Part shown: positions 1,021 to 39,756 of the stretch, piece after piece
Layout: the number at the start of each line of letters is the position of its first letter
Position numbering within the stretch: position 1 is the stretch's first letter
Source of the DNA: Chiloscyllium plagiosum
Taxonomy: Eukaryota
Length of the DNA: 40,265 bases
Reading direction: 5' to 3'
Assembly (NCBI RefSeq): GCF_004010195.1
Contig: NC_057752.1
Coordinates: 5,783,055-5,823,319 of the forward strand
The notes under the pieces: generated by a model
Database searches by the model: none
The model's input: only the letters and a program-made list of their open reading frames with translations
What the model was told of the DNA's origin: nothing
Program-made: the position numbers and the translations under genes

Positions 1021-1180
1021 GTAACAAAAACAGAAACTGACATCTGTACTCAGAAACAGAGTTTCTGTTTCTGAGTACAGATGTTTGTATCCAGTGACCC
1101 TTCGTCTGAACTGAAGAAAACTGGGGAAAGATGGAATTTATGCTGATGACAGAGTGGGGTTGGAGAAAGAGGTTTGTTGA
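1021..1180 (-). mobile_element. Penelope-like element terminal fragment with fold-back hairpin
   Basis: The reverse complement resembles the 3' end of the PLE at 19485-20145 (agggtcactgga...ttctgtttttgt). It contains a decayed hammerhead-like motif and a perfect 21-bp hairpin at 1040-1084. Confidence 0.6.
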
Positions 1181-1182
1181 AG

Positions 1183-1390
1183 TGCATGTGCAAGGTTGGG
1201 CTGTATGTGTGTGTGTGTGTCTGTCTGTGTGTGTGTACGTGCATAACTTGTGTGTACATTTGTGTGTCTGAGTGTATTTGGGCGTGCATGTGTATGTGTA
1301 TACATCTGTGTGCCTATGTGTATACATCTGTGTTTGCATTTGTGTGTGTGTGTGTTTTATGTGCTGTGTGTCTACGTGTGCGTGTGTTTT
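1183..1390. repeat. Degenerate (TG)n microsatellite
   Basis: Alternating TG/CA low-complexity tract. It explains the spurious HT- and CV-rich ORFs here. Confidence 0.95.
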
Positions 1391-3321
1391 ATGCACTGTC
1401 CTCTTCCTGCACACAGACTGGGATCAACGGGTTTGACAACTCAGTCAGTCGTGAATCAGTTCGGGACAATTGGCTACATGGCACTTTGAGCCCTTTGACC
1501 CCTTACCATTGCGATGCTTTGAGACTAGAAAGTTCGAATTGAGGACATTTACGGAAGAAAATGACTCACGGTACAAAGCTATAGATTCCAAAAGAACAGA
1601 AATAACGTTTGTATCCCCAGCTCTCAAGATATCACGTGGTTTTTCGGAGATGCAGCCGGCAAACAGCAGGACATTGAAGAAGCTGCTCAAATCTTCATGA
1701 AACATGACATATCTGGCAGCTTATTGGCTCGGCCCAGCAGCCGGTGAGGGCACACTAAGCACCAAAACGATCCTTAAACTGTGCGCAGACATTGCTTATT
1801 CCCGACGCAAAAATAACGCCACAATCTATTGCTGATTTTGTCCACCTCACATCAAAGAGTGCTGCATCCCTTCTGTCCGTTGTTATCACTGCGCTGAGCA
1901 ATATTGGAGTCTTTAGCGCGCCTGTTTGCATATCTTGCTGGCCACAATCTCAAAATCGCACCTTTTTGGGCGCCGCTACTAACGCGGTCAATGATTTAAA
2001 AAAATACCCTCCAGCCACCCACCACTCCCCGCCTCATTTTACCTTTGCATCTACCTTTCCTGGGAATGGTGAACGCTGTGATTGGGATCTCGGGATCAAG
2101 TAAGTACCAGGAACAGGGAATAGCGAAGCTCTAATGTGCTCAGGCCAACCCCAACTTTCGGAGGAGTCTCTTCCCCCTCCTGGCGCCAATCTGTGAGCGG
2201 TGGTCGTCCAGGTACTGAAGAAAGTCACGGTCATACTCCTGAGAGCGAGCAGAGAGAGAGAGATGAAGCCTCCAGCAGTCTGGTCCTTTTTCACATCCAG
2301 CTGGGATAGACTGTTCTGTAGACCGACCGCAGTCTCAGTGCATTAACTAAGTGTTTTTTTTCACCTGGATTGAAGGAAACGATAACTTTATCATGTCTGG
2401 CGGCGACTTCAGTGGGTTCGGTCTGAAATGAGCCAGGAAGTGGGTGGGGGTGGTGCCAAATACTGACCAGGCTGCACTAACCCTGTCATTGCACACAGCC
2501 GCAAGTTAGCTAGAGATATCTCTGCAAGTGACACTGGAGGTGTCCAGACAGGAGCAAAGCATCTGGTACATTTTGATTCCTTCTGCCGTTTCGGAACTCG
2601 CCGGCGGGTTCTTGTTTGCCCCGGGGACTCTTCCGCGGTTTGCAAAGCGCCTCGGTCCCCGTTCCCCCCCTCGAACATTACACCTTCCCTTGCTTCTGGG
2701 CGGCTGACTTTGGCCAACTTCCCGATTGTTACCCCCCCCCCCCTTTCAGTCTCTCTCGGCGTCTCCATTGTATATACATGGCGATATAAAAGGCTTGGAT
2801 GTGCGTTGTCACGTTTCTGGGAGAGCTCTCAAAGGGCTTCGGCTGCAATGAATCGCTTTGATTTGCAGAGGCTGTCAACGGAAACCACAGCTGTCCTGTA
2901 CTTTTTTTTGTGCGCGTTTTGAAATGCGCTGCCCCTGAAATAGGGTCAGTAATGGGATGTGTATAAAGAGAGCAGAATGTGTGTGTGTGTGTTGTGTTGG
3001 GGTGGGGGGACGTTGAAGCACAGGATCAGAATGAGCAATCTTTAACTACACAATGCTGCATTAATGTCAACATCATCCGTCAATATTTACTAATTATGAT
3101 TAAAAACTATTACTGGTAGTGGATGGCGTGAATGTCAAATTGCTCAGAAAAAGCTTCAGGAGCTACCTTAAGAAGTGGCTGGAATTTTGGATGGGGCTGA
3201 AGGAGGATTAATGGCCCATTAACGGGACCTGATTTTCCCCCAAGTTTTCCATGCGTTTCCATTGGTGCCTTTATTGTCTGCCCCAGCGCCTCTGATTGAA
3301 TTAAAGGCTGCTCGTTTACAG

Positions 3322-3463
3322 GAGAGAGAGAGAGAGAGAGAGATCATAGTCTCGATGATTCGGAGAGAGAGAGAGAGAGAGAGGTGCGTTTAAAACTTGA
3401 GGTGCAGGAGGAGAGCAGTAATCAGACTCGCACCTCTCTTTCTGTCTGTCTCTCTCTCTCTCT
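3322..3463. repeat. (GA)n and (CT)n microsatellite tracts
   Basis: Two (GA)n runs at ~3322-3343 and ~3363-3383, followed by a (CT)n run at ~3433-3463. Confidence 0.9.
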
Positions 3464-3529
3464 CCGCATACTGCAAAAAAAAACTACTAGCATCACACTG
3501 GCTCCCTCCTTGAGCAGATGCACTTCAAA

Positions 3530-4357: not shown

Positions 4358-4620
4358 GGTGGCCGGGAACGAGATTCTGGGCTTGAAGATCCCCCTGGAG
4401 CCCATCCTGACGGCCAACGCAGTGTGCCTGACCCTGCCGGGTCTCAGCAAGCGCCAGTTGGGCCTGTGTGTCCGGAGTCCTGATGTGACCGCCGCTGCCG
4501 TGCAGGGAATCCAAGTCGCTATTCACGAGTGTCAGCATCAACTCTGGGACCAGAGGTGGAACTGTTCGACTCTGGAGAACGGGGGCAAGGTCCTGCAGGA
4601 CACCGTCATCCTGAGCAGAG
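4358..4620 (+). CDS. wnt10b: Wnt10b coding exon 2
   Basis: Acceptor ttgcttcAG at 4356-4357. Encodes [70 protein letters not shown]...[19 protein letters not shown] and ECQHQL match Wnt10b rather than Wnt10a. Donor AG|GTAAGC at 4620/4621 is phase 1. Confidence 0.96.
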
Positions 4621-5045: not shown

Positions 5046-5302
5046 ACCAGGCGAGATAGCGACCCCATGTCAACATTGGCACAAATTGCAGGTGTGATGT
5101 GAAGGTGCTTGGGAGCGATTGGATGAATTATGGTCCATAGTGACAATGGTATTCCTGTCGGTGGGGAGGGGGTTGTGGAGAAGAGTTCTTTTTATATACA
5201 AACCGACACCCCCCCCCCCTCCCCCAACACACATCTCTGGGATTGTATAATGCGACAGTGACCCTGGAATTTATTGATGCTGTGGAGCCCGGTGTTGGAC
5301 TC

Positions 5303-5640
5303 CACGCAACAACATGTTATAGTCCAACAGGTTTATTTGGAAGCACTAGCTGCTCCTTCATCAGGTGGTTGTGGAACAGGACCACAAGATACAGAATTTA
5401 TAGCAAAAGATTACAGCGTCATGCAGCTGAAATGATATATTGAACAAGCCTATTGAACCTAGATTTGTTCAATATATCGTTTCAGTTGGCTGACACTGGA
5501 ATTTTTTGCTGTAAATTCTGTGACTTATGTCACAGAATTCTGTCCTGTTCCACAACCACCTGATGAAGGAGCAGCGCTACGAAAGCTAGTGCTTCCAAAT
5601 AAACCTGTTGCTGTGTGATATAACCTGGTGTTGTGTGATT
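5303..5640. mobile_element. Penelope-derived fold-back (palindromic) element carrying a minimal hammerhead motif
   Basis: Arms ~5303-5450 and ~5464-5640 are imperfect reverse complements. The right arm has CAC-CTGATGA-AGGAGC-AGC-GCTAC-GAAA-GC-TA-GTG. Confidence 0.8.
5557..5591 (+). ncRNA. Minimal type I hammerhead ribozyme motif
   Basis: CUGAUGA at 5560-5566. Helix II is GGAGC/GCUAC with one mismatch. GAAA at 5581-5584. Palindromic loopless helix III (AGCU), CUA cleavage triplet ending at 5588, helix I CAC/GUG. Activity not shown. Confidence 0.7.
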
Positions 5641-6032
5641 TGTAACTATGCCCTGGAATTATTGGTAACCCCCCCCCCCCCCTCCCCTCAGACGCACATC
5701 CACTTTGTCCTCCCCGTGTTACAGGGGTCAGCCCTTGGTGTCTGGCCTGGCACAGGAAGCGGGGAGCCCAGCTGTAGCGGCTTATATGTCCGGATCGCCT
5801 GCTCAACTCTGAATTACGACAAGATCGTTGGCTATACGAACACAGCAGTCCGACAGCAAATGCATTTTTCTCCCCCCCCCCAAAAAAAAGCTGCCAGAAT
5901 GCGCGTAGGTTTTGTACGTTTCCGTGAATCCTGGGTTCTTTGCTAAGAACCGACAGAGGAGCAGTCCTCACTTTGTGCAAGCTGGGATCGCGAGTGTTTC
6001 AAAGCTCCAACTCCGTGGACTTCGATTTTCTC

Positions 6033-6337: not shown

Positions 6338-6565
6338 GTGGCTCAGTGGTTAGCACTACTGCCTCACAGCTGCCAGTGTCCTTGGTTCAATTCCCGCCTC
6401 GGGCGACTGTCTGTGGGTTTCCTCCCACAGTCTAAAGATGTGCAAGTTAGGTGGATTGGCCATCAGTCAGAGGGGAAATGGGTCTGGGTGGGTTACTCTT
6501 TGGAGGGTCGGTGTGGACTGGTTGGGCCGAAGGGCTTGTTTCCACACTGTAAGGAACCTAATCTT
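6338..6565 (+). mobile_element. HE1-like V-SINE (tRNA-derived), internally deleted
   Basis: A box gtggctcagtggttagcac, B box ggttcaattccc, V-domain-like tttcctcccacagtctaaagatgtgc, and a CR1-like tail ending taatct. Homologous to 22529-22805 and 36397-36706. Confidence 0.85.
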
Positions 6566-7139
6566 AAAAACTGTGATTCCACCAGCCATTTCCTCAGGGA
6601 GGATGGGGCCAGAGTTTTCACCCCTGGTTTGGGGGGCGGGGGAAGGGCAAATCGGCTGGCCTGCCTCCTCCAGGAGAGTGCTGACGGGTACTCCGTGGGC
6701 TTTCAAGTGCTTGGACATGCTGCAGGGTCCATGGACATGTCAGCCCAGGCAGCGGCGTCACTGCTCTTTAATCTGGAAAAAGTTCACCAATTAACTGCAA
6801 CCTCCTGCCTCGCGTGTCTGTGTCCCCTCCACCCCCCATTATCCACTGAGCCCGCCCCGTTTCTTTACGAAGAAAGGTCTTTGCAGAACCGAAGAAATGC
6901 AAAACAAAAACCAACAGATGTTCCAGCTGAATGGCAGATGTGTGCCTCTGGTTGGTTTGTGTTGACTGTGGCTGAATCGCTCCTGCACGATATGATCCCA
7001 ACTGGCTCGCACCAACGCAACATCTGCAATGAACCCAAGCCAAGTGAATAGCTGTTATCACCATATCACCATGTCCACGGAGGAATAGTCCTACTGACGG
7101 GATATTCGGGGATATTTGCTCACTCCAGTTCTCCAGTGG

Positions 7140-7640: not shown

Positions 7641-7642
7641 AT

Positions 7643-9060: not shown

Positions 9061-9714
9061 CTACTCACTGTTCCTCCTCCCCATACAGTAAGTTCCTTCT
9101 AACTAATGAAATGCCAGAATTGTAAATGGCTACAGAGTTTAGGGAATCTGTGAGCAAGACTCACTGAAAACATTAGGAAGGTACAACAAAACAATTAGAA
9201 AGAAGAATATCTCAAGGAAACTTGAATATAACAGATGGCACCTGGAGTTCTGCACTCAGTTCAGGGTTCTGTATCTTAAGAAGAATGTTTGAGCTTGGAG
9301 TGGGTACAGGTTCATCAGGTTATATGTTAAAGGAATTGTAGAGAAGGACAAGGTGGTATTTCCTTAAGCTTGGAGGTTAAGTAATGAACCCACTGAGGAT
9401 TATTAAAGGAATTTATAGAACTGCTGGAAAGAAACAATTTCCTCAGATGGTTTGGGGAAGGGGTGGGAACAGGGTGGAGGGTCCAGAAGGAGGGGCAGAA
9501 CTTTAAAGTTCAAGCAAGGCCCCTCAAGGGAGATGCCAGGAAGCACTCCTTCACACAATTGGAAATGGAAATTTCCAACTCTCTCCTTTCCCTCTGACCT
9601 CGCACCCCAAACAGCTGTGTATGTCAGAAGCCAAGCAAAGACTCGAAAACTGCAGTGGATAGATTTTTGTTCGATAGGGTGTTCCCCACTCCCTCCCCCA
9701 GCATCAAGACGAAG

Positions 9715-10250
9715 ACAGTAAGGACTGCATCTGCTAGAAGTCAGAGTCAATAGATGTGAAACTGGAGGAGCACAGCAGGTCAGACAGCATCCGAGGAGCA
9801 GGAAAGGCATCGTTTTGGACCGAAAGCCTTTTCAGGACTGGGGAGGGGGAGGGGAGTCCAGAAGTAAAGAAAGGGAGAAGGGTTGGGCTGGAGGAAGGGT
9901 AGATGCAGGTCTGGGATTATTGTGATTGGTCAGTGGGAAGGGTGGAGTGGATAGATGAGTAGGAAGATGGACAGGTTAGGTCAGGCCAGGGAGGCAAGGA
10001 GGAGGGGGAGGGCTAGGCATGGAGAAGGCTGGGGACAGAAGGACTTTGAAGCTGGTAAAGTCAACGTTGAGGCCATTGGGCTGTCAGCTTTCCAGGCGAA
10101 ATATCAGGTGTTGTTCCTCCAGTTTCCATTCGGCCTCACTCTGACAATGGAGGAGGCCAAGGGTGAATGTGTTGCCGGGGGACCAGGAGGGGGAACTAAG
10201 GTGGATGGCAATCGGAAGGTCGGATTGGTTAATGCGTGCATAGTATAGTC
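9715..10250 (-). mobile_element. Penelope-like retroelement 3' relic (GIY-YIG endonuclease C-terminus plus terminal repeat)
   Basis: The minus ORF DLPIAIHLSSPS...LGLLHCQSEAEWKLEEQHLIFRLES matches the RKLEEQHLIF motif of the copy at 19.7 kb. The terminal part (gaggactgca.a.tgct..; cagcatccgaggagcagga) is shared with 23801, 34858 and 39670. Confidence 0.8.
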
Positions 10251-10920
10251 GCTCTGCCAACCGGGTCAAGTCGTACTCCAGGGCTAGATGACCAGGGAAG
10301 TCGTATTCATAACACAGCCGAACAGGTTAACATTCAACCTGCAAATCCTTTTAACCCGATAGCAGGCAGTCAGAGCAGGAGAGATTCAGGGTCAGCCTGA
10401 ATGGAATGGAAAGAAATTGGACCCTCTACCATCACTGCCCATTGATCCTGACTACAACATATACAGTATATAGAATGCAACATGTAATTGAATGTGGAAT
10501 TGTCATGAACGTGAAGCACATTTACGTGAAACTCAACATGTAATTGAAATACAGTCATCTGAAATGCAACAGCCCGAGTGGTCTATAACACACCATCATA
10601 AGGGGCAGGGTGGGGAGCTGGGCTAGCAGGATGCAGATGAATGGGAGAACAGGCTGGCGGGGCTGAATGGCCTCTGTCTGTCCCCATGTAACTCCATTGG
10701 GAAGCGTGTGACTGTGGAAAGAGATGGACAGCATTCTGAAGTGGTATGTGTGTAATTTTGCAGGCGCCTGTGTTAAGCTCAGGTCTCTGCCACTTAGTAA
10801 TGTTGCAACAAACAAGCTGAAGGACCATTTCTGCATCTCGGTTCAGCGACCAGCTTCGCTTAAATGTGTAAAGCCTTGGAATTGCACCTCGGTGACCCTC
10901 ATGTTCTTGTGCCCGAGCAG

Positions 10921-11285
10921 GTTTTCGGGAAAGCGCCTTCATGTTTTCGCTGCTGGCCGCGGGGGTTACCCACTCAGTGGCGACAGCCTGTAGCCTGGGG
11001 AAGCTCCGGGGCTGCGGCTGCGACCTCAAGCGGAGGGAAGACGACCAGAACCTGCGCTTCAAACTCCACCAGCTCCGGGTGCAGGCCCTGACCCAGGGCA
11101 TCCCAGTCTCGATCCTCGAGCCCGAACAGCGTTACCCCGGCCTCCAGGACTCCTGGGAGCGGGGGGACTGCAACCATGACATCGAATTCGGGGAGAAGTT
11201 CTCCAGGGACTTTCTGGACTCCCGGGAAACCTCGAGAGACATCCATGGGAGAATGAGACTGCACAACAACAAGCTGGGAAGACAG
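10921..11285 (+). CDS. wnt10b: Wnt10b coding exon 3
   Basis: Acceptor AG at 10919-10920. Encodes (G)[33 protein letters not shown]...[20 protein letters not shown]...[12 protein letters not shown]. Donor CAG|GTAAAC at 11285/11286 is phase 0. Confidence 0.96.
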
Positions 11286-13618
11286 GTAAACACATCTGTG
11301 TGTCTGGACCATTCATTAGTCAGTCTGGTGCCCGTCGTTTTGTCCAGAACCTGTGTCAGTGAAACTGATCCTTAGTATACTCTGGGATGAAAGGAAGGTC
11401 AGTTTAAAATGTTCCAATTCTATCTCGGTAATATGATCTGAGAATTTTGGTGTATTTCAGTTCTACAGCAACCAATATCCCACTAGTTCTAAATAAAAGC
11501 TGCTCCGACTTGTAGCTGAGTGTTAAACAGCGCCAATCAGCATGTTAGCGGCGCCAAAGAGCATATTAGCGGCGCTCAATTATCTTACGGGGGAATTGTA
11601 CCTGTGCCTGCTGAATTGTCATCTGTTTGTCTTTAAATCAGAAAGGAAGGCCGCCGATGTTTGTAGCATTAGCAGTTCAGTCCCTCAGGCTGGCAGTGAA
11701 GGGTTGTAAACCAGGTTTGGGGAAGTGCTGTCCTGTCCTAGTTGAGTGTGAAATGCCTGAATCTCGATTGAGCCAGTGTCGCTAATTATAGTTTGGGCTG
11801 TGATCCAGGCAACAGCTGATCGTGTTCAAAAGACACAAATGCTAAACCAAAGACGAGAGTTATGCAATCTGAAAAAAAGGGGGATAAGTATCTCCTTGTC
11901 TTGGGTCTTGCTTTTCTGGTCATTTCAACAATCCAACAGAGCCATCTTATGAGAGATGTTAAATCCTCAGCCAAACCTGTTTCTCAAGGGCACGAAGATC
12001 AGGATAATGGATAGAAGTGGCTGTAGTTTATATGCTAGCACAGATGAAATGTAGCTATTATTAACATAAATCCTTAACAATTTATATATCCATGTTGTCC
12101 TGAAAGCACGTTTGAATAAGCTGAGTATGCCAATGAGCTGAATGCATGGGCACACAGTGCCAATATGGTGACTAGTTGGAACACTCATGCTTTGGCACAG
12201 GAGTGTAATGATGCCTGTGTGACCATGGCAGAATATTGGCTCAAATTGGCAAGTTTTGGTTTTGGTTTGAAGACACTGTCTGCTTTTAATTAGTTTTTTT
12301 AAAATTACTGCTAGTTGCCCCACCTCTTACCTTTACTAACCATCTGAGAATAGTAGGCTGTCTTCTGTGATTAGGATTATGTCTGACTGGAATCTATATT
12401 GCAGTCTTTACTGATTTGGCAGCTTTCTGCTTGAAATGTATCATTTAATTCTTCAACATAGGAAGAATCCATTTTCAGTGCATGCAGGAAGTTGATCAGG
12501 AAATCCCTGCTCACTCCAACTCTTTCTGATTGATTTCACTCATCCTCAATTTCTTAACACCAGTAATTTGAGGAAAAGCCTCCCACACTCAATTAAACTG
12601 AAACCAGGCAGATGTGAGTTAATAGGGCCCAGGAGGGCATACACACAACCATCGCAATGAGAAATGTCCCTCCATGTACCACATTTCAACTTCTGAAGAA
12701 GAGTTTCATTCATAAGTTTTGTTAAATCTTTCAGCCAGCATCAAGATAGTCCTTCTATATCTGGTGACAGACCTTCTTTTTAACTATTCAAGTCTTTCCC
12801 AATGATCATTTAAAATGTGATATGAATTGAGAACTGAAGGTCCATTTCTGCAATTTTAGTGAATAGTAAATAATAGAGATTGGTAGGAAGCTATTTAGCC
12901 CCCCACACCCTTGCCTTCATTATTCATTAAATCTATCTATGTCAAAACCAGGTGCACATTCCATTGGAAGTTGCTATGTAAATACTTCCTGTGAGAATTC
13001 TCACTTTAAGACCACCACATTTACTGTGAAGATAGTAAGTGGCACTATAGCAGGAATCTCAATGTTAGGCCTCACTTGCTTGTCACAGTACCCTCAGTGT
13101 CTTGGAATCCTGTTGATTTATTCTCAGTGCTCCTATAGAACTCTCTCTACTGTGTGTGCATTTGATAACTTTCTTTTTCACTTTTTAAAATTTAAATCTT
13201 AATATCTTGCTGACTTTCCAATCATTCTGAGTTTCCCTTCAATTTGGTCCCACTAAGGTCTTGATTTTGGCCTCGTTTTCAACATTCTTAATCTCCTAAA
13301 TAATCTGCCTTTCATCTAATTTTTTTCCATTTCCACCCCACTCTTCATGAACATTATCTTGTGTGTGTGCTTGCCTCTGCTCTGGTTCCAGATGAACCAG
13401 CATTACCACCATTTTTGCCAATGTCGGTGCCCAATGGCCACAATTGCTTTCCATCTTCACCATTGATCTCATCTTCCATCACAGATACTGTGCCATCAAT
13501 TAATTGTAAGCTTGCTTTTTAGCAACTGAGGGTGGTTTATCTGGAATCCTCCTTGGCCATTTGCAGGTTATCCTACATCACAATTTACTTTGAAGGGACA
13601 GTAAAAGAAAAGAATATT

Positions 13619-13904
13619 CAAAGTTTGTGAGAAGATTTGTAGCTCGGGTGCTCGTTGCTGTGGTTCTGTTCGCCGAGCTGGAAGTCTTTGTTGCAAACGT
13701 TTCGTCCCCTGTCTAGGTGACATCCTCAGTGCTTGGGAGCCTCCTGTGAAGCGCTTCTGTGGTGTTTCCTCCGGCATTTATAGTGGCCTGTCCCTGCTGC
13801 TTCCGGTTGACAACACAGGAGGCTCCCAAGGACTGAGGATGTCACCTAGAAAGGGGACGAAACGTTTGCAACAAAAACTTCCAGCTCGGCGAACAGAACC
13901 ACAG
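13619..13904. mobile_element. Penelope-derived element with 91-bp inverted repeats, hammerhead motifs and target-site duplication
   Basis: Arms 13658-13748 and 13814-13904 differ by 3 mismatches by eye. Flanked by the direct repeat AAAAGAATATT (13608-13618, 13905-13915). Each arm has CTGAGGA...GAAACGTT. Confidence 0.82.
13693..13732 (-). ncRNA. Minimal hammerhead ribozyme motif (antisense to wnt10b)
   Basis: The minus strand reads GCA-CUGAGGA-U-GUCACCU-AGAC-AGGGGAC-GAAA-CG-UU-UGC. Core, helix II, palindromic helix III (ACGU), GUU triplet and 3-bp helix I are all present. Confidence 0.6.
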
Positions 13905-15389: not shown

Positions 15390-15655
15390 GGAAGGGATTC
15401 TACTGCAATGTTTTGGACGAAGAGAGGGGTATTCTTTCTGGTGTCCTGGCCAATGTTTTATTTCTCAATCAGCATCACAAAAGCAGATTATCTGATCGCA
15501 TTGCCACTTTCAAGAGCTTGCTGTGCGCAAATTGGCTGCTGCACTTCCAACCTTGCAATGGTGTTCACAGCTCGATAAAGGCCTCATTAGCATAAAGCAC
15601 GTTTGGGATGCCCTGGAGGAAAAAAGGCGCTATGTAAATACAAGTCTTTCTTTTC
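15390..15655 (+). mobile_element. Deu-domain SINE fragment (SacSINE1/AmnSINE1-like)
   Basis: ggtgtcctggccaatgtttt...gagcttgctgtgcgcaaattggctgctgc..ttcc...aggcgctatgtaaatacaagtctttcttt resembles the Deu domain and tail. Homologous to 28178-28590 and 37365-37832. Confidence 0.75.
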
Positions 15656-15933
15656 TTTCTCATTTTTCCAGTGAAGAAGCACCTTTCCCCCACTCACATC
15701 TCTGCCCTCCCAGCTATCTATGAGCAGGACCGCCAGAGATTTACAAGTATGTCATAGATTGGACTGCTCCAGGCAAGGATAGACTAGCATCTGATAACAG
15801 GGGTCCTATCAGATCATTCACTTTGATTTGTGTGTTGTATTCAGAGGGTGATGGAGAGGGGTTAGTCAGTCTGTTCATTGCTCTAGTCCTTCCTTTGCTC
15901 TTTCTGTTTGATTGCTTTTCTTCTGAATTTCAG

Positions 15934-17780: not shown

Positions 17781-17935
17781 CATAGAGTCACAGAGATGTA
17801 CAGCACGGAAACAGACCCTTCAGTCCAACCCATCCACGCCGACCAGATATCCCAAATCAATCTAATCCCACCTGCCAGCACCCGGACCATATCCCTCCAA
17901 ACCCTTCCTTATTTATATACCCATCCAAATGCTTT
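17781..17935 (-). mobile_element. CR1-like LINE extreme 3' end
   Basis: catagagtcacagagatgtacagcacggaaacagaccctt... is the reverse complement of the CR1 tail. Confidence 0.88.
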
Positions 17936-19165: not shown

Positions 19166-19484
19166 AATGTGGTGGCTTGGCAAACCTTTGGAATTCAGTT
19201 CTGTGTGGTAGAGGCTGAAGTGGGTGGGGGAGGAAGTAGTGCTTGAACCTTTGGGTGGGGGGGGGGGGCGTGGCGCGGTGGAAATGCAGTGTAAAGAAAT
19301 GCTTGCCCTGCCAAACCTGTGCCACAACCTGCCAATACTTTGCAAGTGATCTGCGATTATTCCCAACCCATAAAGTGCACTTTGAAATGGAAATTGGCTG
19401 GAACAGCTGAAGAAAGATGTTGGAACTTCAAAGTCAGGTGCTGAAACTGCTTGGTGAATCAGCCTAATTAAAATTTAACAATCT

Positions 19485-20145
19485 AGTCGACTGCACTTGC
19501 TGCTCACAATGTGGTCTCCTCTACATTGGGAAAATGAAGCGCAGATTGGGTGACTGCTTTGCAGAACATCTATATTCTGTCCGCAAAAAAAAATCCCCTG
19601 TGTTTCCAGTTGCCTGCCACTTCAACACACACCCTGTTCCCTGGACAACATCCCTAACTCAGGCTTACTACTGTGTTCCAATGCAGTTCAGCGCAAGCTG
19701 GAAGAACAGCACCTCATTTTCCACTTGGGAACTCTACAGCCTTCTAGGCTCAATATCAAGTTCAACAATGTTAGGGCTTGAGGCACCTTTTCCCATGTCT
19801 TTACTCCCAGCCCCTTCACACCAGGCCTTGCTATCACATGGTCTGCCAAAACACATAACTCATTGTTAGCCACTAATTGTCCATTGTTAGCTATTCATTC
19901 TCCTAGGCTGATTGTTATCCACTCCTTTGCCTGTCCAACTGTTCTTCTCTCTCTTTGGGCTCTATCTCTATCTATTGTTTACTCCTTATCTCAACCCTCC
20001 CACCCTATCTTCTGCATAAGAACCAACGTTTTCCTAGCTACTATCAGTTCTGAGGCAGGGTCACTGGACCTGAAATGTTAACTCTGATTTCTGTCCACAG
20101 ATGTTCTACACCTGTTGAGCTTTTCCAGCAATTTCTGTTTTTGTA
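19485..20145 (+). mobile_element. Penelope-like retroelement relic with GIY-YIG endonuclease remnant
   Basis: Frame from 19501 reads CSQCGLLYIGKMKRRLGDCFAEHL...PVACHFN. After a frameshift it reads QRKLEEQHLIFHLGTLQP..LNI. A decayed hammerhead (ctgaggc-agggtc-actg-gacct-gaaa) lies at ~20050-20075. Confidence 0.88.
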
Positions 20146-23800: not shown

Positions 23801-23915
23801 GGGAGAAAGTGAGGACTGCAGATGCTGGAGATCAGAGTCAAGAGTGTGATGCTGGAAAAGCACAGCAGCCAGGCAGCATCCGAGGAGCAGGAAAATCAAT
23901 GTTTCGGGCATAAGC
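23801..23915 (-). mobile_element. Short Penelope-derived terminal-repeat element
   Basis: ggagaaagtgaggactgcagatgctggagatcagagtcaa...cagcatccgaggagcagga...gtttcgggcataagc is the reverse complement of 34858-34990. Confidence 0.75.
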
Positions 23916-25464
23916 ATGATGAAGGGTTGCAGAGGCACTGTGAAAATACACATTCACAGAATCTTTCCATATACAGAAAGGCATAGGTATTGGCAAGAAA
24001 GTTGGGAAAATAGGGAGAGATTGGCAGTAAGGAGCTTCTTGACATCGAGTCACGTGCATGGCTGGGCATGAAAGATTGCACTAGAGCCAGGAATCCTGGG
24101 AGATTGCAGCAGTGTGCCACATTTCCACCTGTGGCAAGTGGGAAACCATGATGAGCAGGGAACCATAGGGCATGTGGGAGAAAACTCACTCATCAAAATT
24201 GACACCACCAATTTCTGGTAAAACTCAGTCCATAGTTTTGGCTGTAAGCCACTGTTTTATGATATTTAGTTGTCAAAATCTACCCTTAATGATGATTGTG
24301 TCATTACTTTTATTGCCATGATGCTAAGCATCTGCAGGAACTTGCCATTTTCAACCTATTTAAATCAAATAGTTGTTTGGTAGTACACAATTTAAGTATT
24401 GCTGAAAAAAGACACATTTTTGTCAAAGTTATTTGTCTTGCATGCATCAGGACAATTCACAAGAATACCAGTTCAAGGGGCAACCCAACATTTATATTGC
24501 ATGAGAGGAGGGTGCTGGTTGGTTAGCAAGTGAACTCCAGTTGGTAGAGACATTGCCCATGGAGAATGTACTTATTAATAATGACTGACAATTAACAGCA
24601 CCGCTTTGTTTAAATTTTAAATCAGGCTCTGATTGACACTGATTGGTCAGGGCATTGCTTTGAGAAATAAACCAGCAAAGGGTGTTGCCTATCTCATTGA
24701 CTTGAAATAGGTGCTGTGTGTGTATGTGTATGTATATACTTTGTTTCTACAAAGAACACGGCATTGTATATTAATATATATCACTTCCAATACACACAAG
24801 TGTACCACACAATGAGCCTAACTGACAATCCTAAATTTGTTGTCAGTGTAATACTTCGCACAATCAGGATTATCCAGCAAATGTTGTCTAATTTCAGAAT
24901 TACATCAAATGTTAGGCATTGTGTTGCAGGTTTTTCAAGTGTGGTTTGGATACAGTCAGTATCTTGCTTGTGGCAATCAGCCAAAGTGCCATGCTGTCTG
25001 ATGTAATCCATTAGTCTCTAGGATGTATGGCCTACTTACCTAGCATTACACCAGTACTCAAGTTCATATATTACATTACCCATTGGTGTGATTTTAGTCT
25101 TGATGGCAGCATCCTGTCGGTGGTGAATCCCACTCGTGTTGCTGATGCATAATAACAGAATGAAACAGCTTCACCTGTTGCTCAAACATTTTCCAGGGAC
25201 GTCCAAGGTAGGCTGGGCACTTCTGAGCACCGAGAGAGACTGCCTTAGGTCCTTTCATGAGCATGTACAATGTACAGGATCAGGATCACCAATGTCCCAT
25301 AGGATGCGCCGTATTTTGACATCAAGCTTGCACAGTGAATTAATAGCTTGGGCCTTATTTGCGAGGTTGTCAATGACACAAACTTTCAGTCATAAGCTAA
25401 ATAAATACCATATGGTTTGTGAAATCTTTGATTAACCTTAGATTTATTTTAAAATGCATGTCAG

Positions 25465-25761
25465 TTGGTTAACTCAGTTGCCTGGACAACAGGTTTACAA
25501 TGCTTTCCTGATGAAGGGTTCCTGCCCGAAACGGCGATTTGCCTGACCTGCTGTGCTTTTCCAGCACCACTCTAATCTTTACAACACAGACTGATACTAA
25601 CAGTGTAGGTTCAATTCCTGTACTAACTGAGATTATTATGAAGGATTCTCTCCTCACTTGAGGCATGGTAATCCTCTGGTTAAACCACCACCAGTCATCT
25701 CTCTCTAATGAGAGTGTAGCCCTATGGTCTGGTAGGACTGTGGCAACTTTACCTTTACTTT
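25465..25761 (+). mobile_element. tRNA-derived SINE interrupted by a ~75-bp hammerhead-bearing insert
   Basis: A-box-like ttaactcagttg and B box ggttcaattcc, with an (acttt)n-like tail. The insert at ~25504-25577 is flanked by TTTACAA repeats. Confidence 0.6.
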
Positions 25762-26865: not shown

Positions 26866-26981
26866 AGTTATAGTTGTATTGGAAATCACAAGCTTTCAGA
26901 CCTTAGCCCCTTCATCAGGTGAACCTGTGGTTGTGTGACTTCTGACTTTGTCCACCCCAGTCCAACACTGGCACTTCCACA
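26866..26981 (-). mobile_element. Internally deleted Penelope-derived element with hammerhead core
   Basis: Minus strand 26921-26887 reads CAC-CTGATGA-AGGGGC-TAAG-GTCT-GAAA-GC-TT-GTG. The terminus (atgtggaagtgccagtgttggactggggtggacaaagtcagaagtc) is shared with 35125-35240 and related to 5303-5640. Confidence 0.72.
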
Positions 26982-28177
26982 TACTGGGGAAAAAGCAGGG
27001 AAGTGGGATTAAATGGATCGAATGGCCTCTTCTTGTGATGTATGATTCTGTGATTCTACTCAACACCAGAACAACAAAGTCTTGTGGAAATTTGACGTAA
27101 GTGCTCAAAATTCTGCAATGCAAAATTCTGTTTACAGCATAAAAGGTTCTGATGATAATGGGAAAGGATGCGTCAATTCAGTACTACTGTGTGGAGATTA
27201 GTGGAAATACTCACATGTAGAAAGAAGTCAGAATCTGAGACATTACAATTGTAATACCCACCAAAACTAAGTCAATGAATTAGAAACACAGACACAGAGA
27301 ATGCTGGAGAAACTTAGTAAATCAGGCAGCCATTGTGGTGACAGAAGTAAAGTTAATGTTTCAAGTCTGGTATGGCTCTTCTTCAAAATATTTTGCACGT
27401 ATTTCAATGAACTAGATAAATACTTGAAGTGCAAAATGGTTATTAATGGTAATAAAAGAATTTAGAACAAAACAAATACAGGAAAAGAGCAGGAAAATGG
27501 GATGGGATGCCAAAAGCAGAATGGGATGAATGTTCTACAACTTTTATGATTCTATAAATTACATTAAACATCAGTGTGAAACAATTTATGGGTAATTGCT
27601 GAACAGAGATGTGTCACAGAATCAATTCAATTTGCACTTAACAGATCATACATGAGAATGTCAATTTTCAAATCATCACAATAATTTATAACACATGAAA
27701 AAGGGGCACTGATTGGTTGACAGAATGTCTACTGTTAGATGTAATTTTGCAATGTGTAGAACTTGTTGAGCAATCCAGGATGTGCTCATAGCTACACTGA
27801 CAACCAATTTAGGATAATCAGTCAAGCTTGTAACATGGTTAATTTATCATTCCAGAGTGGCATATGTTCATATGTGGGATCTGTTCTCTGCAAACAAAGG
27901 TTCAAATCCAGGTTCAAATTTTGCAGCTTTTTTGAATTACTTGGGACGTTGGGGAGCCTATGGTTTCCTGTTGCTCTCTACATTGCTGTGCTTCAGCCAA
28001 TCAGCTTCCTTTTGTCTTGGAGACTAAATTGTTGTGCTTGTTTGAGATGTGTCATTCTTGTAGTTGTCCTGATGAGTGTAAAACAAAAAGCCTTGGTAAC
28101 ATGTCTCTACTTTCAGTAATCTTCTATAAATTGTTTCACATTGATCTTTACTTAATCTTTCTAGACTCTACAATATG

Positions 28178-33203: not shown

Positions 33204-33562
33204 TTGAGCTTCAGATGATATCACAAACCATGAGTGCAAAAACACGGGCTATTTACAACTGCAATTTCAACAGGGATAAAATGACTGCCTCTAAGTCTCT
33301 TCACTTTACCCAAAGTTTGAAAATAACTAGTTATCTCCAGAGGCCTCACATCCAAGCAGTAAGATCAAATGTAGTCTTGAGGTTAGACACTAGAGGATAA
33401 TTGGGCTAGGGCAGTAGACATAATTGAGTCCTTATTTTGTATTTCCATTACATATCCCCAAGTGTAATGTAAACAGTCTATGTAAGCTCCTCACACTGTA
33501 ATTACAGCTCTCTCCAGTGGGGCACTGCTTCTTCTCACACCTCATGGTCTATGAGGCATGTG
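33204..33562 (+). repeat. Left arm of ~360-bp inverted repeat
   Basis: Reverse complement of 35533-35904. Both copies give the ORF-track peptide ELQMISQTMSAK.RAIYNC.FNRDKMTASKSLHF. Confidence 0.95.
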
Positions 33563-34857
33563 CTGCACCTACTTATGGGTTAAAATATAAAGTGTCTCCA
33601 TTGTGCAATTTCTGTGCTTTTAATCAGACCCTGAAGCACATCTTCATCACTGCACTCAGTAGCAGCCTGAAAAGCTATCTACCAAAGACTCTGATTGGAT
33701 ATCTTCGGTAATTATACTGGTGTTGCACTTTTAGCTACTAGGAGAAAGGTTCCATTTCAGCTCCTTTAGTTTGATCCTCCTCAGTCATATTCTACTCTTT
33801 GGCTACGCGTAGCTAAACATTCATGTTGTTCTTGTTGCTTTCTGCTGTCTATTGCTTGGACATGTTTTGCATTGAGTCGAGTCGGACTGCTCAGCCATTT
33901 CCTGCAACATCCTTAGCTATTATGACATCACTCCTGAATCAAGAGCAGAATAGGGAAACAAATCAGAGCACTGAAATGTCACTCAAGAAGACAAAGGAGC
34001 ATTCCTCAAATTAATCTCAGATGTCCCTCGGCTGAATTGCTGGAAGCTGGTTTATCAGGAAAAATGATATGCACCCTTTCATCTCCCACGGTTAGATTCA
34101 AAATTGACTGAGGAAGGATTATTGAGAAATATTCCTTCACAATAATTCATCTTTACTACAATTCCTATACATATTCTTCAGTATATTTCTCTTTTTCTTC
34201 CCAAATGTTGGTCAGCCAAAGTTAGAAAGCTTCATGACCTTCTGACTGATGTCTGAAATACATCCATGATCATTTTATTATAAGCATTACTTATTAACAA
34301 TGACTACACTGTATATGTTTACTGTAACCTCTTTCTGAATAATTGAACCATGATTTGGATCTGACTAAAGCTAGCTTTCCTGGTTTGATCATTGCCATTG
34401 CAAAATAAATCACGGGTGGCAACTGCAGGTTAAAAGGATTCAGAATGAACAAAAACTGAAAGCATCACAGAAAATGTCCAATCTGAATCTTGATATTTAT
34501 TTTAATTGACATTTTTACATGTGAATTGAAGGTGAATTGCTTCATCACGTGGTTGTACAAAACTTGAGTATCACTGAAGAAAGAGACAAGGTGTTGAAGC
34601 TTTTTACCTTGCACTCATCAGGACTGAGTTCTAAAGAGAAGTAATTATCTGCAAAAAATATTTACCATCCTCCCCCTGCCCACCATGACAATATCTAGTC
34701 TCGGATACTTGTTTCAGGTGTGAATAATCTTTTTTCCTTGAGACACAAAGTTCTTCCAATAATCAACTGATGAGGTTTTGATAAATGCAGAGTGGGAGTT
34801 CTTAATCTGTTACCCCATCTGCTGACTGAAGTAGACTAACTTTTAATTGTCAATTCC

Positions 34858-34990
34858 CATTCCTGATGAAAAGCTTATGCTTGAAATGTCGACTCTCCTG
34901 CTCTTCAGATGCTGCCTGACCGGCTGTGCTTTTCCAGCTCTGCACTTTTTTGACTCTGATCTCCAGCATCTGCAGTCCTCACTTTCTCCT
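34858..34990 (+). mobile_element. Short Penelope-derived element with hammerhead core
   Basis: CTGATGA at 34863-34869, helix II AAGC-ttat-GCTT, GAAA at 34883-34886, GTC triplet ending at 34890. The body ends ccagcatctgcagtcctcactttctcc. Confidence 0.75.
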
Positions 34991-35124: not shown

Positions 35125-35240
35125 CATGATGTGGAGGTGTTGGTGTTGGACTGGGGTGGACAAGGTCAGAAGTCTTCACTTGACAAAAAAGCAGCACTGC
35201 AAATGCCTGTTGGACTATAACCTAGTGTCGTGTGACTTTG
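35125..35240 (+). mobile_element. Penelope-derived terminal fragment
   Basis: gatgtggaggtgttggtgttggactggggtggacaaggtcagaagtc...cctgttggactataacct.gtgtcgtgtgactt, sharing ends with 26866-26981 and 5303-5640. Confidence 0.6.
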
Positions 35241-35532: not shown

Positions 35533-35904
35533 CACGTGCCTCATACACCATGAAGTGTGAGAAGCAGTGCCCCACTGGAGAGAGCTGTAATTACAGTGTG
35601 AGGACCTTACATAGGCTGTTTACATTACACTTGGGGATATGTAATGGAAATACAAAATAAGGACTCAATTATATCTACTGCCCTAGTCCAATTATCCTCC
35701 AGTGTCTAACCTCAAGACTACATTTGAGCTTGACTGCTTGGATGTGAGGCCTCTGGAGATAACTAGTTATACGATAGATAGTTATTACCATCTTTGGGCT
35801 AAAGTGAAGAGACTTGGAGGCAGTCATTTTATCCCTGTTGAAATGGCAGTTGTAAATAGCCCGTGCTTTTGCACTCATGGTTTGTGATATCATCTGAAGC
35901 TCAA
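35533..35904 (-). repeat. Right arm of ~360-bp inverted repeat
   Basis: Reverse complement of 33204-33562, with scattered substitutions and an indel near 35765-35790. Confidence 0.95.
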
Positions 35905-36396
35905 TGAGATTACTGCATATAATCACCCCAGGCATCCATTACTCTCTTTGTAAACATTCTGGGCATGTCACATGCATAACAGCAAAGCCTGGTTATTATG
36001 TGCTCGGCATGTTAAGCTAAGTATAAACCTATGATCAAGCAATTTATCAACGCAAATCAGAGAAGCAGCTGATTTGAATTGGAACACACTCCAAGTGTTG
36101 TACAACACAAGGCCCATAGGCTGAATTATACCCATAGTTTTTTTCATGACTCCCACTTCATACTTATACTCTGAACAATCAGTTTGCACTTGCTCCTCAA
36201 CTAACATCACTACATCAGGTGGTTTACTTATCATCATGTTACTGATGATGAGATCTTGCTGTGCAGATGTTCACTGTTGCATTTCCTACACAGCAATACT
36301 ACATTCAAAAAAGAAGTCCATTAACTTTAAAGTGCTTTAGGAAATCCTCAAGTTGTAAAAAGTGCTATATCAGTGCAACTGTCTTGTTTCTTTAGA

Positions 36397-36706
36397 GAAG
36401 ATTACTTACAGTGTGGAAACAGGCTCTTCAGCCCAACAAGTTCACACCAACCCTCTGAAGAGCAACCCACCCAGACCCATTCCCCTACATTTACCCCAAC
36501 TAATGCACCTAAGACTACAGGCAATTTACCATGGTCAATTCACCTAACCTGCACATCTTTGGATTGTGGGAGGAAACCGGAGCACCAGGAGGAAACCCAC
36601 GCAGACACGGAGAATGTGCAAACTCCACACAGACAGTTGCCCGAGGTGGGAGTTGAACCCGGGTCTCTGGCGCTGTGAGGCAGCAGTGCTAACCACTGTG
36701 CCGCCC
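36397..36706 (-). mobile_element. HE1-like V-SINE, near full length
   Basis: The minus strand starts ggggcggcacagtggttagcactgctgcctcacagcgccagagacccgggttcaactccc (A and B boxes), followed by a V domain and CR1-like tail. Confidence 0.92.
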
Positions 36707-37364: not shown

Positions 37365-37832
37365 AAAGGACTTGCATTTATATAATGCTTCCATGAACAG
37401 AGCATCCCAATGCAATTTCTAGCCACTGGAGTACTTTTTTAGGTGTGATCACTGCTATATTGTAGGAAACACTGCAACCAATTTGAGAACACAGCAAACT
37501 TCCATAAACAGCAAGCTTCCATGAAGAGCAATGTGATAATGATCATCTGGTTTTGTGGTTTTAATTGAAGGATAAATATCAGCCAGGACACTGGGTCGAA
37601 CTTCCCTGTTCTTCAAAACAGAGCCATGGGATCCTTTGTATCCATGTAAGAGAGGGAGCTGGGCTTCAGTTTCACACTTCATTCAATGGACGGGACCTCT
37701 GACAGTGCAGCACTCCCTCAGTAATGGGCTGGAGCATCAGCCTTGACTTTTGTGCTCAACTCTTGAAGTGGACTTTGAACCTAGAGACTGCAGCCTCAGA
37801 GGTGTGAGTGCTATCGACTGAGCATCGGCTGA
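37365..37832 (-). mobile_element. Deu-domain SINE, near full length
   Basis: Minus strand gctcagtcgatagcactcacacctctgag...ggttcaaagtccacttc...gatcccatggc...ttgaagaacaggga...gtgtcctggctgatatttatcc. Homologous to 28178-28590. Confidence 0.8.
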
Positions 37833-38065
37833 CACCTGACACACCACCCATCCCCACAATCTCACCTTATCAACATATCTTTTTTTTTTCCTTTATCAGT
37901 TTATCCGGCTTCCCATTAAATATATGGATTATGCATCATTCTCTTTTGGAGCAAGTTCCACATTCTCAACATTGCCTGGGAATAGACATTTCTTGAATTC
38001 CCAATTGGATTTATTAGTGAATATCTGATGTTTATCTTATGACCTTCCACTTTGGGATTCCTCAC

Positions 38066-38596
38066 TGTGACATTGCTGTCACTTTAACAAGGTTATTTTG
38101 TCCTTGTTTTTTTTTAATAGAAGTGGTAAAGGCAGAGGTGCCAAAATGTCTGCTTTAACAATGGTAGGGGAGTGGCCAGTTCTCCCAGTTCAGGTTTCTT
38201 CTAGTTTGTTAGTGACAAGCTGCTGCAGTGGAGAAAGATTCCAAGCTTCAGCTTTCTCTCTGAAATCTCTCCTGCCTGTTAGAACCCGTGTTTGAATTTA
38301 TCTTTTGCCAAGGGTTGTGTTTATGGGATGTTGCGGGAATTGGAACAGCTCATTAGTTAAGTTGTTGTATCAAGTCGGTTGGGTTTTCAAATAGTTAAGT
38401 TATTCTAAATTCTGTTTCTTTTGCTCGTGTTTCAACTGTAGTGTTTAAATAAATTCTGTTTGCTTAAAGCTGAGTGGTTTGACCAGCTGCATCACTCCTG
38501 GAATATCCACTTCACATCTGCCTTTATAATAAGAAAAATTAGGGTCCGGGCTACCTTCTGAAAATATTTTGAGGGGGTCTAGCCTGGTGCGTAATA
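38066..38596 (+). mobile_element. Solo LTR (531 bp) with 5-bp target-site duplication
   Basis: Starts TGTGAC and ends GTAATA (decayed ..CA). Flanked by CTCAC at 38061-38065 and 38597-38601. Internal AATAAA near 38448. Confidence 0.7.
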
Positions 38597-39669
38597 CTCA
38601 CAAATGGAGACATCTGTTAAGTGCCCTACCAAGTCCCTTCCAAATTTGAAAGACCACCTCCCAGCTGTTTTTTTTGAAAGAAAGGAGTCCAAGCCTTTTT
38701 GGTCTTTCCTGGTAACTGGGTTATTTGGTGCCTGAGATGTGCACCAGCTACTTGCCCATGTAGAGAGCTAGCTCATTAAGAGGTGGGTGCATTTCTACCC
38801 TGAGTCTCAAAGGAAACAAAGGCATTCTTGTTATATTTTAGCACAATCAGTTGTTCCCTTGGTCCGTGTTCATCTCCTGAAGGATGCCATCACCTTCCCT
38901 GAGCTGCCCTTTCTGAGGCTGCAGTTTGTAAACATATGGTCGGTGTCAAAACTTAGTCTGAAACTCTGCAGGAGATCCTGATCTCTTATCAGATTGCTAT
39001 GATATTATTATACCCATCGAAAAACTGCTGAAAAATCCCAAATGCCACATGACTACACTCTAATGTTTCATTTTGCATTTTGAAGGCAATAAAATCAGCC
39101 GCACACATGCTGGATCATATAAAGCTGCTGATAAAGGCATAGCCAGCATGTGAGCTATATTTACTATTTTTGGAAGTTAAGGATGAGAGCACAATTAACA
39201 CAGCAGGTATAGATTTTACAATTCCTGAATGAATTCAATGTTTGTTGTCTTTGTTCACTGTTTATCTGTGGGACAATAGCTAGCTGACAATGAATGATAC
39301 AAAGGATGTAATAGCAACTGGCTGCATAGTGAATGAGCACATTTCACTTTCATATCTTGACTCTGCTCTCCAGACTAATGGAATACAAACCTTTGCCCTT
39401 ACTGGCTGCAAGGAATCTAAACGTTCATTGCCAAGGATTCAGAGCACTTGTAACAGTTTCTTGTGGGTGCATTCCAGCAGTGGAGAATTGCGTATTATTC
39501 CAATTACATTAAGTGTGAAGCTGCCATTGTCCTTTATCTAACGTACATCTGGTCAGTGACTGAGGTCTGGGTTTCTCTCCGAAAGCTGACAGGTAGTGCT
39601 TATTTCTCAACATTTCTGTCATATGTTAAATCCAGCACCAAGACCAAAAGGTGGAGATCTAATAGTCAA

Positions 39670-39756
39670 GATTAGAGAGGTGCTGGAAAAGCACAGCAGG
39701 TCAGGCAGCATCCAAGGAGCAGGAAAATCGACGTTTCAGGTAAAAGCCCTTCATCC
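39670..39756 (-). mobile_element. Short Penelope-derived element (hammerhead 5' core truncated)
   Basis: Minus strand gatgaagggcttttacctgaaacgtcgattttcctgctc...ctgtgcttttccagcacc.ctctaatc, the same family as the 25504-25577 insert. Confidence 0.72.

What the first reader, a model, noticed from the sequence alone, without database searches (positions are those of the whole stretch)
1021..39756. Window is seeded with several families of tiny hammerhead-ribozyme-bearing, Penelope-derived mobile units
Seen: CTGANGA-helix-GAAA cores with a loopless palindromic helix III occur at 5557-5591(+), 13693-13732(-), 13830-13869(+), 25508-25537(+), 26887-26921(-) and 34863-34892(+). Decayed or truncated versions occur at ~1085-1110(-), ~9810-9837(-), ~20050-20080(+), ~23900(-), ~27357-27388(-), ~34598-34623(-) and ~39728-39755(-). 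At least three distinct helix II/III types are present. Two copies are attached to GIY-YIG endonuclease relics (9715-10250, 19485-20145), and the rest are 75-340 bp non-coding units. Known: Penelope-like elements carry minimal type I hammerheads in their terminal repeats, and non-autonomous ribozyme-bearing retroelements (retrozymes) exist. Inference: this genome hosts high-copy non-autonomous, retrozyme-like PLE derivatives, about one per 3 kb in this window. I do not know whether these families have been characterised.
Basis: partly seen in the sequence, partly recalled or inferred. Interest (0 to 1): 0.7.

Follow-up and report, generated by a model that had tools for sequence, protein, structure and literature searches.

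The report
Shark Penelope stubs carrying minimal hammerheads
These short repeats are the ribozyme-bearing ends of Penelope-like jumping genes in shark-type DNA, a known kind of debris rather than retrozymes, but one family starts at a fixed base beside a predicted transcription start, likely because the enzyme copies only the front of its own RNA and runs off.

Summary
The motifs are real: 17 hammerhead-type cores in 15 insertions and five families (A-E), 5 with an intact core. A strict descriptor finds 3, against 0.017 per shuffle. They are not retrozymes by the published definition: none is in tandem and the cores are minimal. They are pseudo-LTR (pLTR) ends of Penelope-like elements. The family B copy encodes, in two frames, the C-terminus (27/31 identical) and N-terminus (41/44) of Chiloscyllium RT/GIY-YIG proteins. 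It has the textbook inverted layout, a 13-nt target duplication and a one-sided tail. Four copies, not two, carry endonuclease relics (two significant, two weak). Truncation is not all random. In DNA contigs of two species, family D starts sharply at 20047-20048 (about 1,000 contigs per run, mixed flanks), 1-2 nt inside a predicted initiator 31 nt after a TATA-like box. Family B shows no such edge. Best reading: dead-end copies, with the fixed-edge ones likely run-off cDNAs from the RNA's 5' end. Cleavage, start site and circles are untested. Solo minimal hammerheads from truncated Penelope elements were published in 2014. This scan noted the same stubs and reading before on other shark DNA.

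The parts
1021..1160 (-). Family D copy: TATA-like box and initiator 30 nt apart, decayed core (first base 1108), internal palindrome 1035-1092; 5' limit approximate
5272..5650 (.). Family A head-to-head insertion: intact core at 5560(+), core with GAAA deleted at 5364(-); long tail on left arm only; 10-nt target duplication 5262-5271 / 5651-5660
   Evidence: chance of a 10-nt match 0.5%
9713..10263 (-). Family C long copy: GIY-YIG relic 10054-10263, 3' UTR, decayed core (9835), tail
   Evidence: HMM iE 3e-10
13619..13902 (.). Family B head-to-head pLTR insertion in a CR1-like LINE: cores 13729(-) and 13833(+); left arm encodes PLE C-terminus (13811-13716) and, in another frame, N-terminus (ATG 13723 at start of helix II); left tail about 33 nt longer; 13-nt target duplication 13606-13618 / 13903-13915
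   Evidence: 3' edges 13616/13617 and 13654/13659
19474..20144 (+). Family D long copy: GIY-YIG relic 19474-19766, TATA-like box 20015, predicted initiator A 20046 (first base of helix I), core 20050-20079 (one core base mutated), 3' end 20144. The high-copy form spans about 20047-20144
23802..23925 (-). Family C short copy; the first ~10 nt of the core are flipped to the other strand
24389..25230 (-).
   Evidence: E 9e-5
25505..25577 (+). Family C short copy, starts about 3 nt before the core, U of NUH mutated, internal deletion; possible 7-nt duplication (chance 10%)
26875..26982 (-). Family A short copy: inverted long tail joined to an intact core (26918) starting 4-5 nt before CUGA; left limit approximate
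27288..27388 (-). Family D short decayed copy starting about 2 nt before the core
27760..28120 (+).
34561..34624 (-). Family E short decayed copy, homology starts about 3 nt before the core
34856..34990 (+). Family C short copy with intact core (34863), initiator-like sequence at -4; possible 8-nt duplication (chance 3%)
35126..35240 (.).
   Evidence: chance 0.8%
39660..39755 (-). Family C short copy starting 2 nt inside the core; 3' limit approximate

Best explanation
The units are solo or head-to-head pseudo-LTR ends of several endonuclease-bearing Penelope-like retroelements, likely dead-end insertions, and the fixed-length ones (family D, probably C and A) are likely run-off cDNAs made when the reverse transcriptase primes about 100 nt inside the front of the element's own RNA and reaches its 5' end. 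Steps: (1) shown: the family B unit is both the last and the first coding stretch of a Poseidon-type RT/GIY-YIG protein; D and C copies continue upstream into Neptune/Nematis-type endonuclease relics. (2) Shown: 3' ends are fixed, in two classes about 33-40 nt apart in B, and inverted pairs carry target duplications. (3) From the anole PAc work: the protein nicks AT-rich DNA and primes at two internal RNA sites, on uncleaved RNA. (4) Shown for D: a sharp 5' edge at 20047-20048. (5) Inferred: that edge is the transcription start, because a TATA-like box and initiator sit there at normal spacing. (6) Inferred by analogy with PAc: the stubs lack the TATA box and the RNA downstream of the priming site that the protein needs, so most cannot be copied again. 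The hammerhead is a passenger in the stub; it would need a partner copy (and perhaps the protein) to cleave.
For: B: 41/44 identity to residues 10-53 of P0001 (656-aa RT, Chiloscyllium punctatum; RVT_1 E 4e-11) and 27/31 to the last residues of P0014, which ends in a GIY-YIG-type domain. The ATG lies at the start of helix II as in PAc, and the layout matches Adineta Pen2a: inverted pLTR, 9-bp TSD, 31-bp tail on one arm, first 12-22 codons inside the pLTR, putative TATA plus Inr. Linker Cx(1-5)CxxC motif: 34 of 64 testable relatives of the D relic, 0 of 38 relatives of the B protein. D, two species' DNA contigs: loose ends before 20047 (544 and 536 contigs) and 20048 (472 and 452), agreement 0.33-0.34, like the mixed flanks at B's 3' end (0.36-0.38); 3' edge 20144 (955 and 1,017). 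Raw-read depth is 128-241 over 20060-20155 against 13 or less in every bin upstream of 20036. Opposite-strand joints 20047/20057 to 20110/20116 show the inverted-tail form. No edge at the cleavage site (20080) is among the 18 loose-end rows shown. TATA-like plus Inr at 30-31 nt in both long D copies and one E copy, against 0.56% of random window positions. In the window, 8 of 17 copies start within about -7..+2 of the first core base (read by eye).
Against: Family B shows no sharp 5' edge: raw-read depth falls gradually from about 220 to 80, and reads run on upstream at 13809 with agreement 0.70-0.85. The TATA/Inr pattern was chosen after seeing the copies and was met in only 3 of the 8 long copies; it failed in both A arms, B, C 9830 and E 24420. 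The D edge is 1-2 nt downstream of the predicted +1, not on it, and it also coincides with the 5' strand of helix I. The short E copy starts near -3 while E's predicted start is -15. Only 18 of 1,847 loose-end rows and 15 of 1,276 joints were shown, and 18 of 425 loose-end rows. The query copy is diverged, so upstream depth is underestimated; summed contig depth peaks at 192,000 in the endonuclease region against 550,000-690,000 in the unit. No full-length partner protein was tied to A, C, D or E at high identity (one search found none).
Confidence: 0.6

Rival explanations
1. Non-autonomous masters: short or internally deleted elements of about 100 nt are transcribed from an internal promoter and copied in trans by the PLE protein, like SINEs.
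For: Both ends of the D unit are fixed and it far outnumbers long copies. Two family A short copies share the inverted-tail-plus-core layout. Drosophila Penelope has an internal promoter in the pLTR. Non-autonomous pLTR-forming elements are reported for Chlamys, and pLTRs can mobilise other sequence in trans.
Against: The two family A copies have different seams. PAc needs RNA to +172 while priming at +111-118, so a stub would lack that part. D, C and E also occur with endonuclease relics. B is coding pLTR.
Confidence: 0.2
2. The fixed 5' edge is set by structure, not by the RNA start: longer cDNAs stall, fold back or are trimmed at the 5' strand of helix I.
For: In D the edge coincides with helix I. 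The short E copy starts at helix I (-3) rather than at E's predicted start (-15). One C copy has the first 10 core bases flipped.
Against: B has an equally good hammerhead and no edge there. The B right arm starts at -19, nearer TATA+31 (-22) than helix I.
Confidence: 0.13
3. True non-LTR retrozymes: monomers shed from tandem arrays through self-cleaved circular RNAs.
For: Tandem retrozymes were reported in one chondrichthyan genome and derive from pLTRs. Single contigs join the D tail back to 20044-20050 or ~19900, so tandem forms exist at low number (table 5c).
Against: No tandem copy in the window. Units do not run from cleavage site to cleavage site. Cores are minimal, not canonical. Ends match PLE priming sites.
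Confidence: 0.05
4. All copies are purely random 5' truncations.
For: Fits family B and the scattered long copies; it is the published reading of single minimal hammerheads.
Against: Family D edge at two adjacent bases in about 1,000 contigs per run, in two species.
Confidence: 0.02

Closest known systems
Minimal hammerheads of metazoan PLEs (Cervera and De la Pena 2014, PMC4209133)
   Same: Loopless palindromic helix III, extra base before helix II, many families per genome, mostly single copies 'probably related to truncated PLEs', opposite-strand pairs 100-700 bp apart; thousands per genome in coelacanth and Xenopus.
   Different: Sharks are not named in the sections read. A fixed 5' edge at a predicted start is not described there.
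Canonical EN+ PLE insertion (Adineta Pen2a, PMC3846280; scheme in PMC8557442)
   Same: Inverted pLTR, 8-10 bp target duplication, 30-40 bp tail on one arm, first codons inside the pLTR, putative TATA plus Inr, solo pLTRs seen.
   Different: Here the insertions have no ORF between the arms, and solo ends dominate. That paper ascribes its TSD-less solo pLTRs to recombination or deletion; three insertions here keep 9-13 nt duplications.
Poseidon element of the green anole, PAc (Frangieh 2024, PMC11167929)
   Same: For family B: ORF starts at helix II, cut site about 26-28 nt after the ATG, insert ends about 105-118 nt into the ORF, two 3' ends, AT-rich target.
   Different: PAc was tested in vitro; nothing here was. 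Families C and D are Neptune/Nematis-like, and their core ATG does not open a long frame in the window copies.
Animal non-LTR retrozymes (PMC7229834; bioRxiv 10.64898/2026.07.22.740005)
   Same: Non-coding, type I hammerhead, related to PLE pLTRs, present in a chondrichthyan.
   Different: Retrozymes are tandem repeats, typically with canonical hammerheads and circular RNAs. These are solo or inverted, minimal, and bounded by PLE ends.

Membership tests
EN+ Penelope-like element (pLTR end) | Linked to a PLE-type RT and C-terminal GIY-YIG ORF | tested here: met
   B. D and C: relic HMM; D's relatives carry GIY-YIG and some RT (mostly below Pfam cut-offs). E weak. A: no partner found.
EN+ Penelope-like element (pLTR end) | Inverted pLTR with target duplication and one-sided 30-40 nt tail | tested here: met
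   B 13 nt, A 10 nt and 9 nt duplications, tails asymmetric; two 3' edge classes in B.
Penelope/Poseidon clade (family B) | No Zn-finger-like linker between RT and EN | tested here: met
   0 of 38 EN-bearing relatives of P0001 have the motif; no tree was built.
Neptune/Nematis clades (families C, D) | Zn-finger-like linker between RT and EN | tested here: inconclusive
   34 of 64 testable relatives of the D relic have it; the window relics stop short of the linker.
Minimal type I hammerhead | CUGANGA / GAAA / NUH core with palindromic loopless helix III | tested here: met
   5 of 17 copies intact; in D, 84 of 87 raw reads restore the mutated core A at 20056.
Minimal type I hammerhead | Helices I and II kept with different sequences across families | tested here: met
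   Read: helix I CAC/GUG (A), GCA/UGC (B), UC/GA (C), AGUU/AACU (D), GUC/GAC (E, decayed); helix III AGCU or ACGU. No formal covariation statistic was run.
Minimal type I hammerhead | Self-cleavage as dimer or with protein | not testable with these tools
   No pile-up of RNA ends, but the library is poly(A) single-cell and cannot show this.
Non-LTR retrozyme | Tandem head-to-tail units, each with a hammerhead | tested here: not met
   0 of 18 TRF rows overlap a core; only single contigs with go-back joints for D.
Non-LTR retrozyme | Canonical hammerhead with loop 1-loop 2 contacts | tested here: not met
   Helix III loopless, helix I 2-4 bp; no Rfam hammerhead match.
Non-LTR retrozyme | Expressed as circular RNA | not testable with these tools
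   No RNA holder listed and no RNase R library.

The most novel reading that the evidence does not exclude
The stubs are failed 'strong-stop' intermediates of a retrovirus-like PLE cycle. The RNA starts at helix I and is ended by hammerhead cleavage in the downstream pLTR, so the ~34 nt from start to cut site form a repeat at both RNA ends. The enzyme first copies the front ~100 nt and normally jumps to the 3' end through that repeat; when the jump fails, the stub is inserted. This would explain how pLTRs are regenerated and what the hammerhead is for. It is against the in vitro finding that cleavage is not needed for PAc insertion and that no anole reads end at the cut site.
Probability: 0.15. 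Interest if true: 0.7.

Novelty: new member of a known kind. Interest (0 to 1): 0.33.

Why it matters
As a class these are known PLE debris, so the finding does not add a new element type. What remains useful: shark genomes hold very large numbers of dated insertion products whose two ends can be counted. If the family D edge is the transcription start, the stubs map PLE promoters and give a direct test of two open points, how pLTRs are regenerated and what the hammerhead does. They also warn that single minimal hammerheads should not be counted as retrozymes.

Tried and rejected
Rfam at E<=10: no hammerhead family; top matches were microRNA models on fold-backs and microsatellites. No assembly is held for this window, so copy numbers and 5'-end counts come only from laid contigs and reads. 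Pfam on the two D relic pieces: 0 families. A word-index search for longer relatives of the D relic found none; the full HMMER search found 267 at E<=0.001. An HMM from 32 Poseidon-type endonucleases scored D at iE 1.5e-4 and missed C. Sequencing runs: no RNA holder listed; X22 laid 0 reads (no test). Minimum-free-energy folding of the B copy as monomer or two-strand dimer did not give the hammerhead fold, which says little for minimal motifs. My expectation that family B would show a 5' edge at its predicted start was not met. Duplications of 7-8 nt at three short copies are within chance (3-10%) and are not used. Literature: hammerhead ribozyme + Penelope + shark gave one paper, where 'shark' refers to the name's origin. 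Searches listed no paper on shark PLE families or on a fixed 5' edge; the library lacks most subscription papers, and Repbase/Dfam could not be searched.
Full report
Setting. The window is vertebrate DNA with a Wnt-family gene (Pfam wnt on 4362-4619 and 15937-16389) among many repeats. The closest named proteins are from Chiloscyllium punctatum, so a bamboo-shark-type host is inferred. No assembly is held. Four coded organisms hold parts of the stretch 11300-19700, organism A at up to 0.84 of its words.

Observation. A plain pattern gave 20 CUGANGA..GAAA matches, most without helices. A structural descriptor gave 3 strict and 4 relaxed hits, against 0.017 and 0.25 per shuffle over 60 shuffles. 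Self-BLAST and alignment group the copies into five families. Five keep all invariant core bases, read by eye; two of these fail the strict descriptor through one helix mismatch each. The copy at 25508 has lost the U of NUH. Helices I and III are kept with different sequences across families. Rfam has no matching hammerhead model at E<=10. None of 18 tandem-repeat rows touches a core.

Family B is a pLTR. The left arm, read from 13750 to 13619, is 41/44 identical to residues 10-53 of P0001, a 656-aa protein with an RT domain. The same DNA in another frame is 27/31 identical to the last residues of P0014, which ends in a GIY-YIG-type domain recognised by motif, not by Pfam. So the unit is the overlap of one element's end and the next one's start. 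An ATG lies at the start of helix II, as reported for anole PAc, and flatworm and unnamed relatives start at the matching place (P0003, P0004). None of 38 endonuclease-bearing relatives has the linker Zn-finger-like motif, which points to Penelope/Poseidon (criterion from passages of PMC8557442). The insertion is head-to-head, sits in a CR1-like LINE (label recalled; RT-like match), has a 13-nt duplication (chance 0.07%) and a longer tail on one arm. This is the layout described for Adineta Pen2a. On reads, 9,547 and 10,371 contigs were laid in two species. The 3' edges are at 13616/13617 (mixed AT-rich flanks) and, in RNA reads, also at 13654/13659. The 5' side shows no edge among the rows shown and fades gradually.

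Other families. The D relic found 267 proteins at E<=0.001. Of ten proteins scanned, seven had a GIY-YIG match at E<0.01 (two above the cut-off), and 34 of 64 testable hits have the linker motif. An HMM from 72 of the 150 listed hits scores the D relic (iE 7e-20 and 1e-5; D was the seed, so this is circular) and, independently, the C relic (3e-10). The E relic at 24955-25230 is weak (HMM 0.07; tblastn 9e-5). Family A has no coding relic in the window, but two of its three insertions have duplications of 10 and 9 nt and carry a long tail on one arm only.

The fixed 5' edge. Laying 19460-20160 on two species' DNA contigs and one raw RNA run recruited about 28,000 contigs per DNA run. The best-supported loose ends are before 20047 (544, 536), 20048 (472, 452) and 20057 (395, 400; caused by this copy's mutations, the loose letters continue the core) with agreement 0.33-0.39, and behind 20144 (955, 1,017). 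The A-rich loose consensus differs from the pyrimidine-rich upstream of the two long D copies, so these are mixed flanks or inverted tails, not another subfamily's upstream. Raw-read depth is 128-241 in the unit and at most 13 upstream of 20036. The predicted initiator A is 20046, 31 nt after a TATA-like box, and is also the first base of helix I. No edge at the cut site 20080 appears in the rows shown. Limits: 18 of 1,847 loose-end rows were shown; contig depth is not copy number; the query is diverged; the RNA run is one poly(A) single-cell sample, 2% read, whose reads come from many loci. In the window, 8 of 17 copies start within about -7..+2 of the core (by eye; approximate for A and C, which lack a close long relative here). 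The promoter pattern was met in 3 of 8 long copies against 0.56% background, and was defined after looking.

Mechanism. Shown: PLE origin, fixed 3' ends, target duplications, inverted pairs, D's fixed 5' edge. From published PAc biochemistry (main text read): nicking of AT-rich DNA on both strands, priming at two internal sites 111-118 nt into the ORF, need for RNA to +172, uncleaved RNA as template, hammerhead active only with protein. Inferred: a transcript starting in the upstream pLTR offers its first complete priming site about 100 nt from its 5' end, so priming there yields a stub from the start site to the tail. Priming on both nicked strands gives the head-to-head forms. Stubs lack the upstream box and the downstream binding region and are likely dead. 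Rivals are non-autonomous masters (0.2), structure-set ends (0.13), true retrozymes (0.05) and pure random truncation (0.02).

Comparison with what is known. PMC4209133 (parts 1-2 of 4 read: results, discussion, part of methods) already reports minimal hammerheads mostly as single copies from truncated PLEs, opposite-strand pairs 100-700 bp apart, and low activity only as dimers or trimers. The 2026 preprint (parts 1-3 of 5 read) defines retrozymes as tandem, derives them from pLTRs and includes one chondrichthyan; its supplements could not be seen and may list these families. Seen as passages only: PMC6155905, PMC8557442, PMC3846280, PMC2377424, PMC7229834. [quoted passage not shown] A 2017 paper on dimeric PLE hammerheads by Lunse and colleagues is recalled, not seen. 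Searches listed nothing on shark PLE hammerheads or a fixed 5' edge.

Earlier scan notes. After I had recorded my reading, one search showed 184 findings with these words in at least 25 genomes. Several reach the same stub and run-off reading. They are unchecked AI notes, not support; they led me to PMC3846280.

Verdict. Real, abundant, a new member of a known kind; not retrozymes. The family D edge is the one feature beyond the literature I could see, and its cause is untested. Interest 0.33.

Noticed in passing
window 33204-33532 and 35560-35904: Two long inverted matches (91% and 97%) about 2 kb apart enclose three of the stubs; could be two copies of one repeat or the ends of a larger element.
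   Followed up: no
window 13606-13812, run X21: Family B RNA reads are about 7:1 on one strand, which under the usual library convention is the hammerhead sense strand; family D reads are balanced. A few loci may dominate.
   Followed up: no
window 34870-34882: This family C copy has two G-C pairs of helix II replaced by two A-U pairs relative to other C copies, a double compensatory change in one copy.
   Followed up: no
window 13723-13694 (-); P0001, P0003, P0004: The hammerhead core of family B is also coding: its GAAA and helix III read as K-R-L, and the same tripeptide stands near the start of the two distant relatives.
   Followed up: partly
P0002 versus window 13815: A C. punctatum gene model joins internal RT sequence to the family B unit within 2 nt of where the right arm starts here; could be a second copy with that edge or a model artefact.
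   Followed up: partly
window 19460-20160, runs X1 and X10: Single contigs join the D tail back to 20044-20050 or to about 19900, so short tandem and partial-tandem forms exist at low number (table 5c).
   Followed up: no
window 23915-23925 and 1035-1092: Micro-inversions: the first ~10 core bases flipped in one C copy, and a tail palindrome in one D copy.
   Followed up: partly
window 4362-4619, ~10921-11286, 15937-16389: Exons of a Wnt-family gene (middle exon by eye; Wnt10-like from recall); three of the insertions lie in its introns.
   Followed up: no
window 22531-22800, 36392-36700, 6473-6570 and several LINE 3' ends: Other dispersed repeats, SINE-like and CR1-like by recall, unrelated to the hammerhead units.
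   Followed up: no
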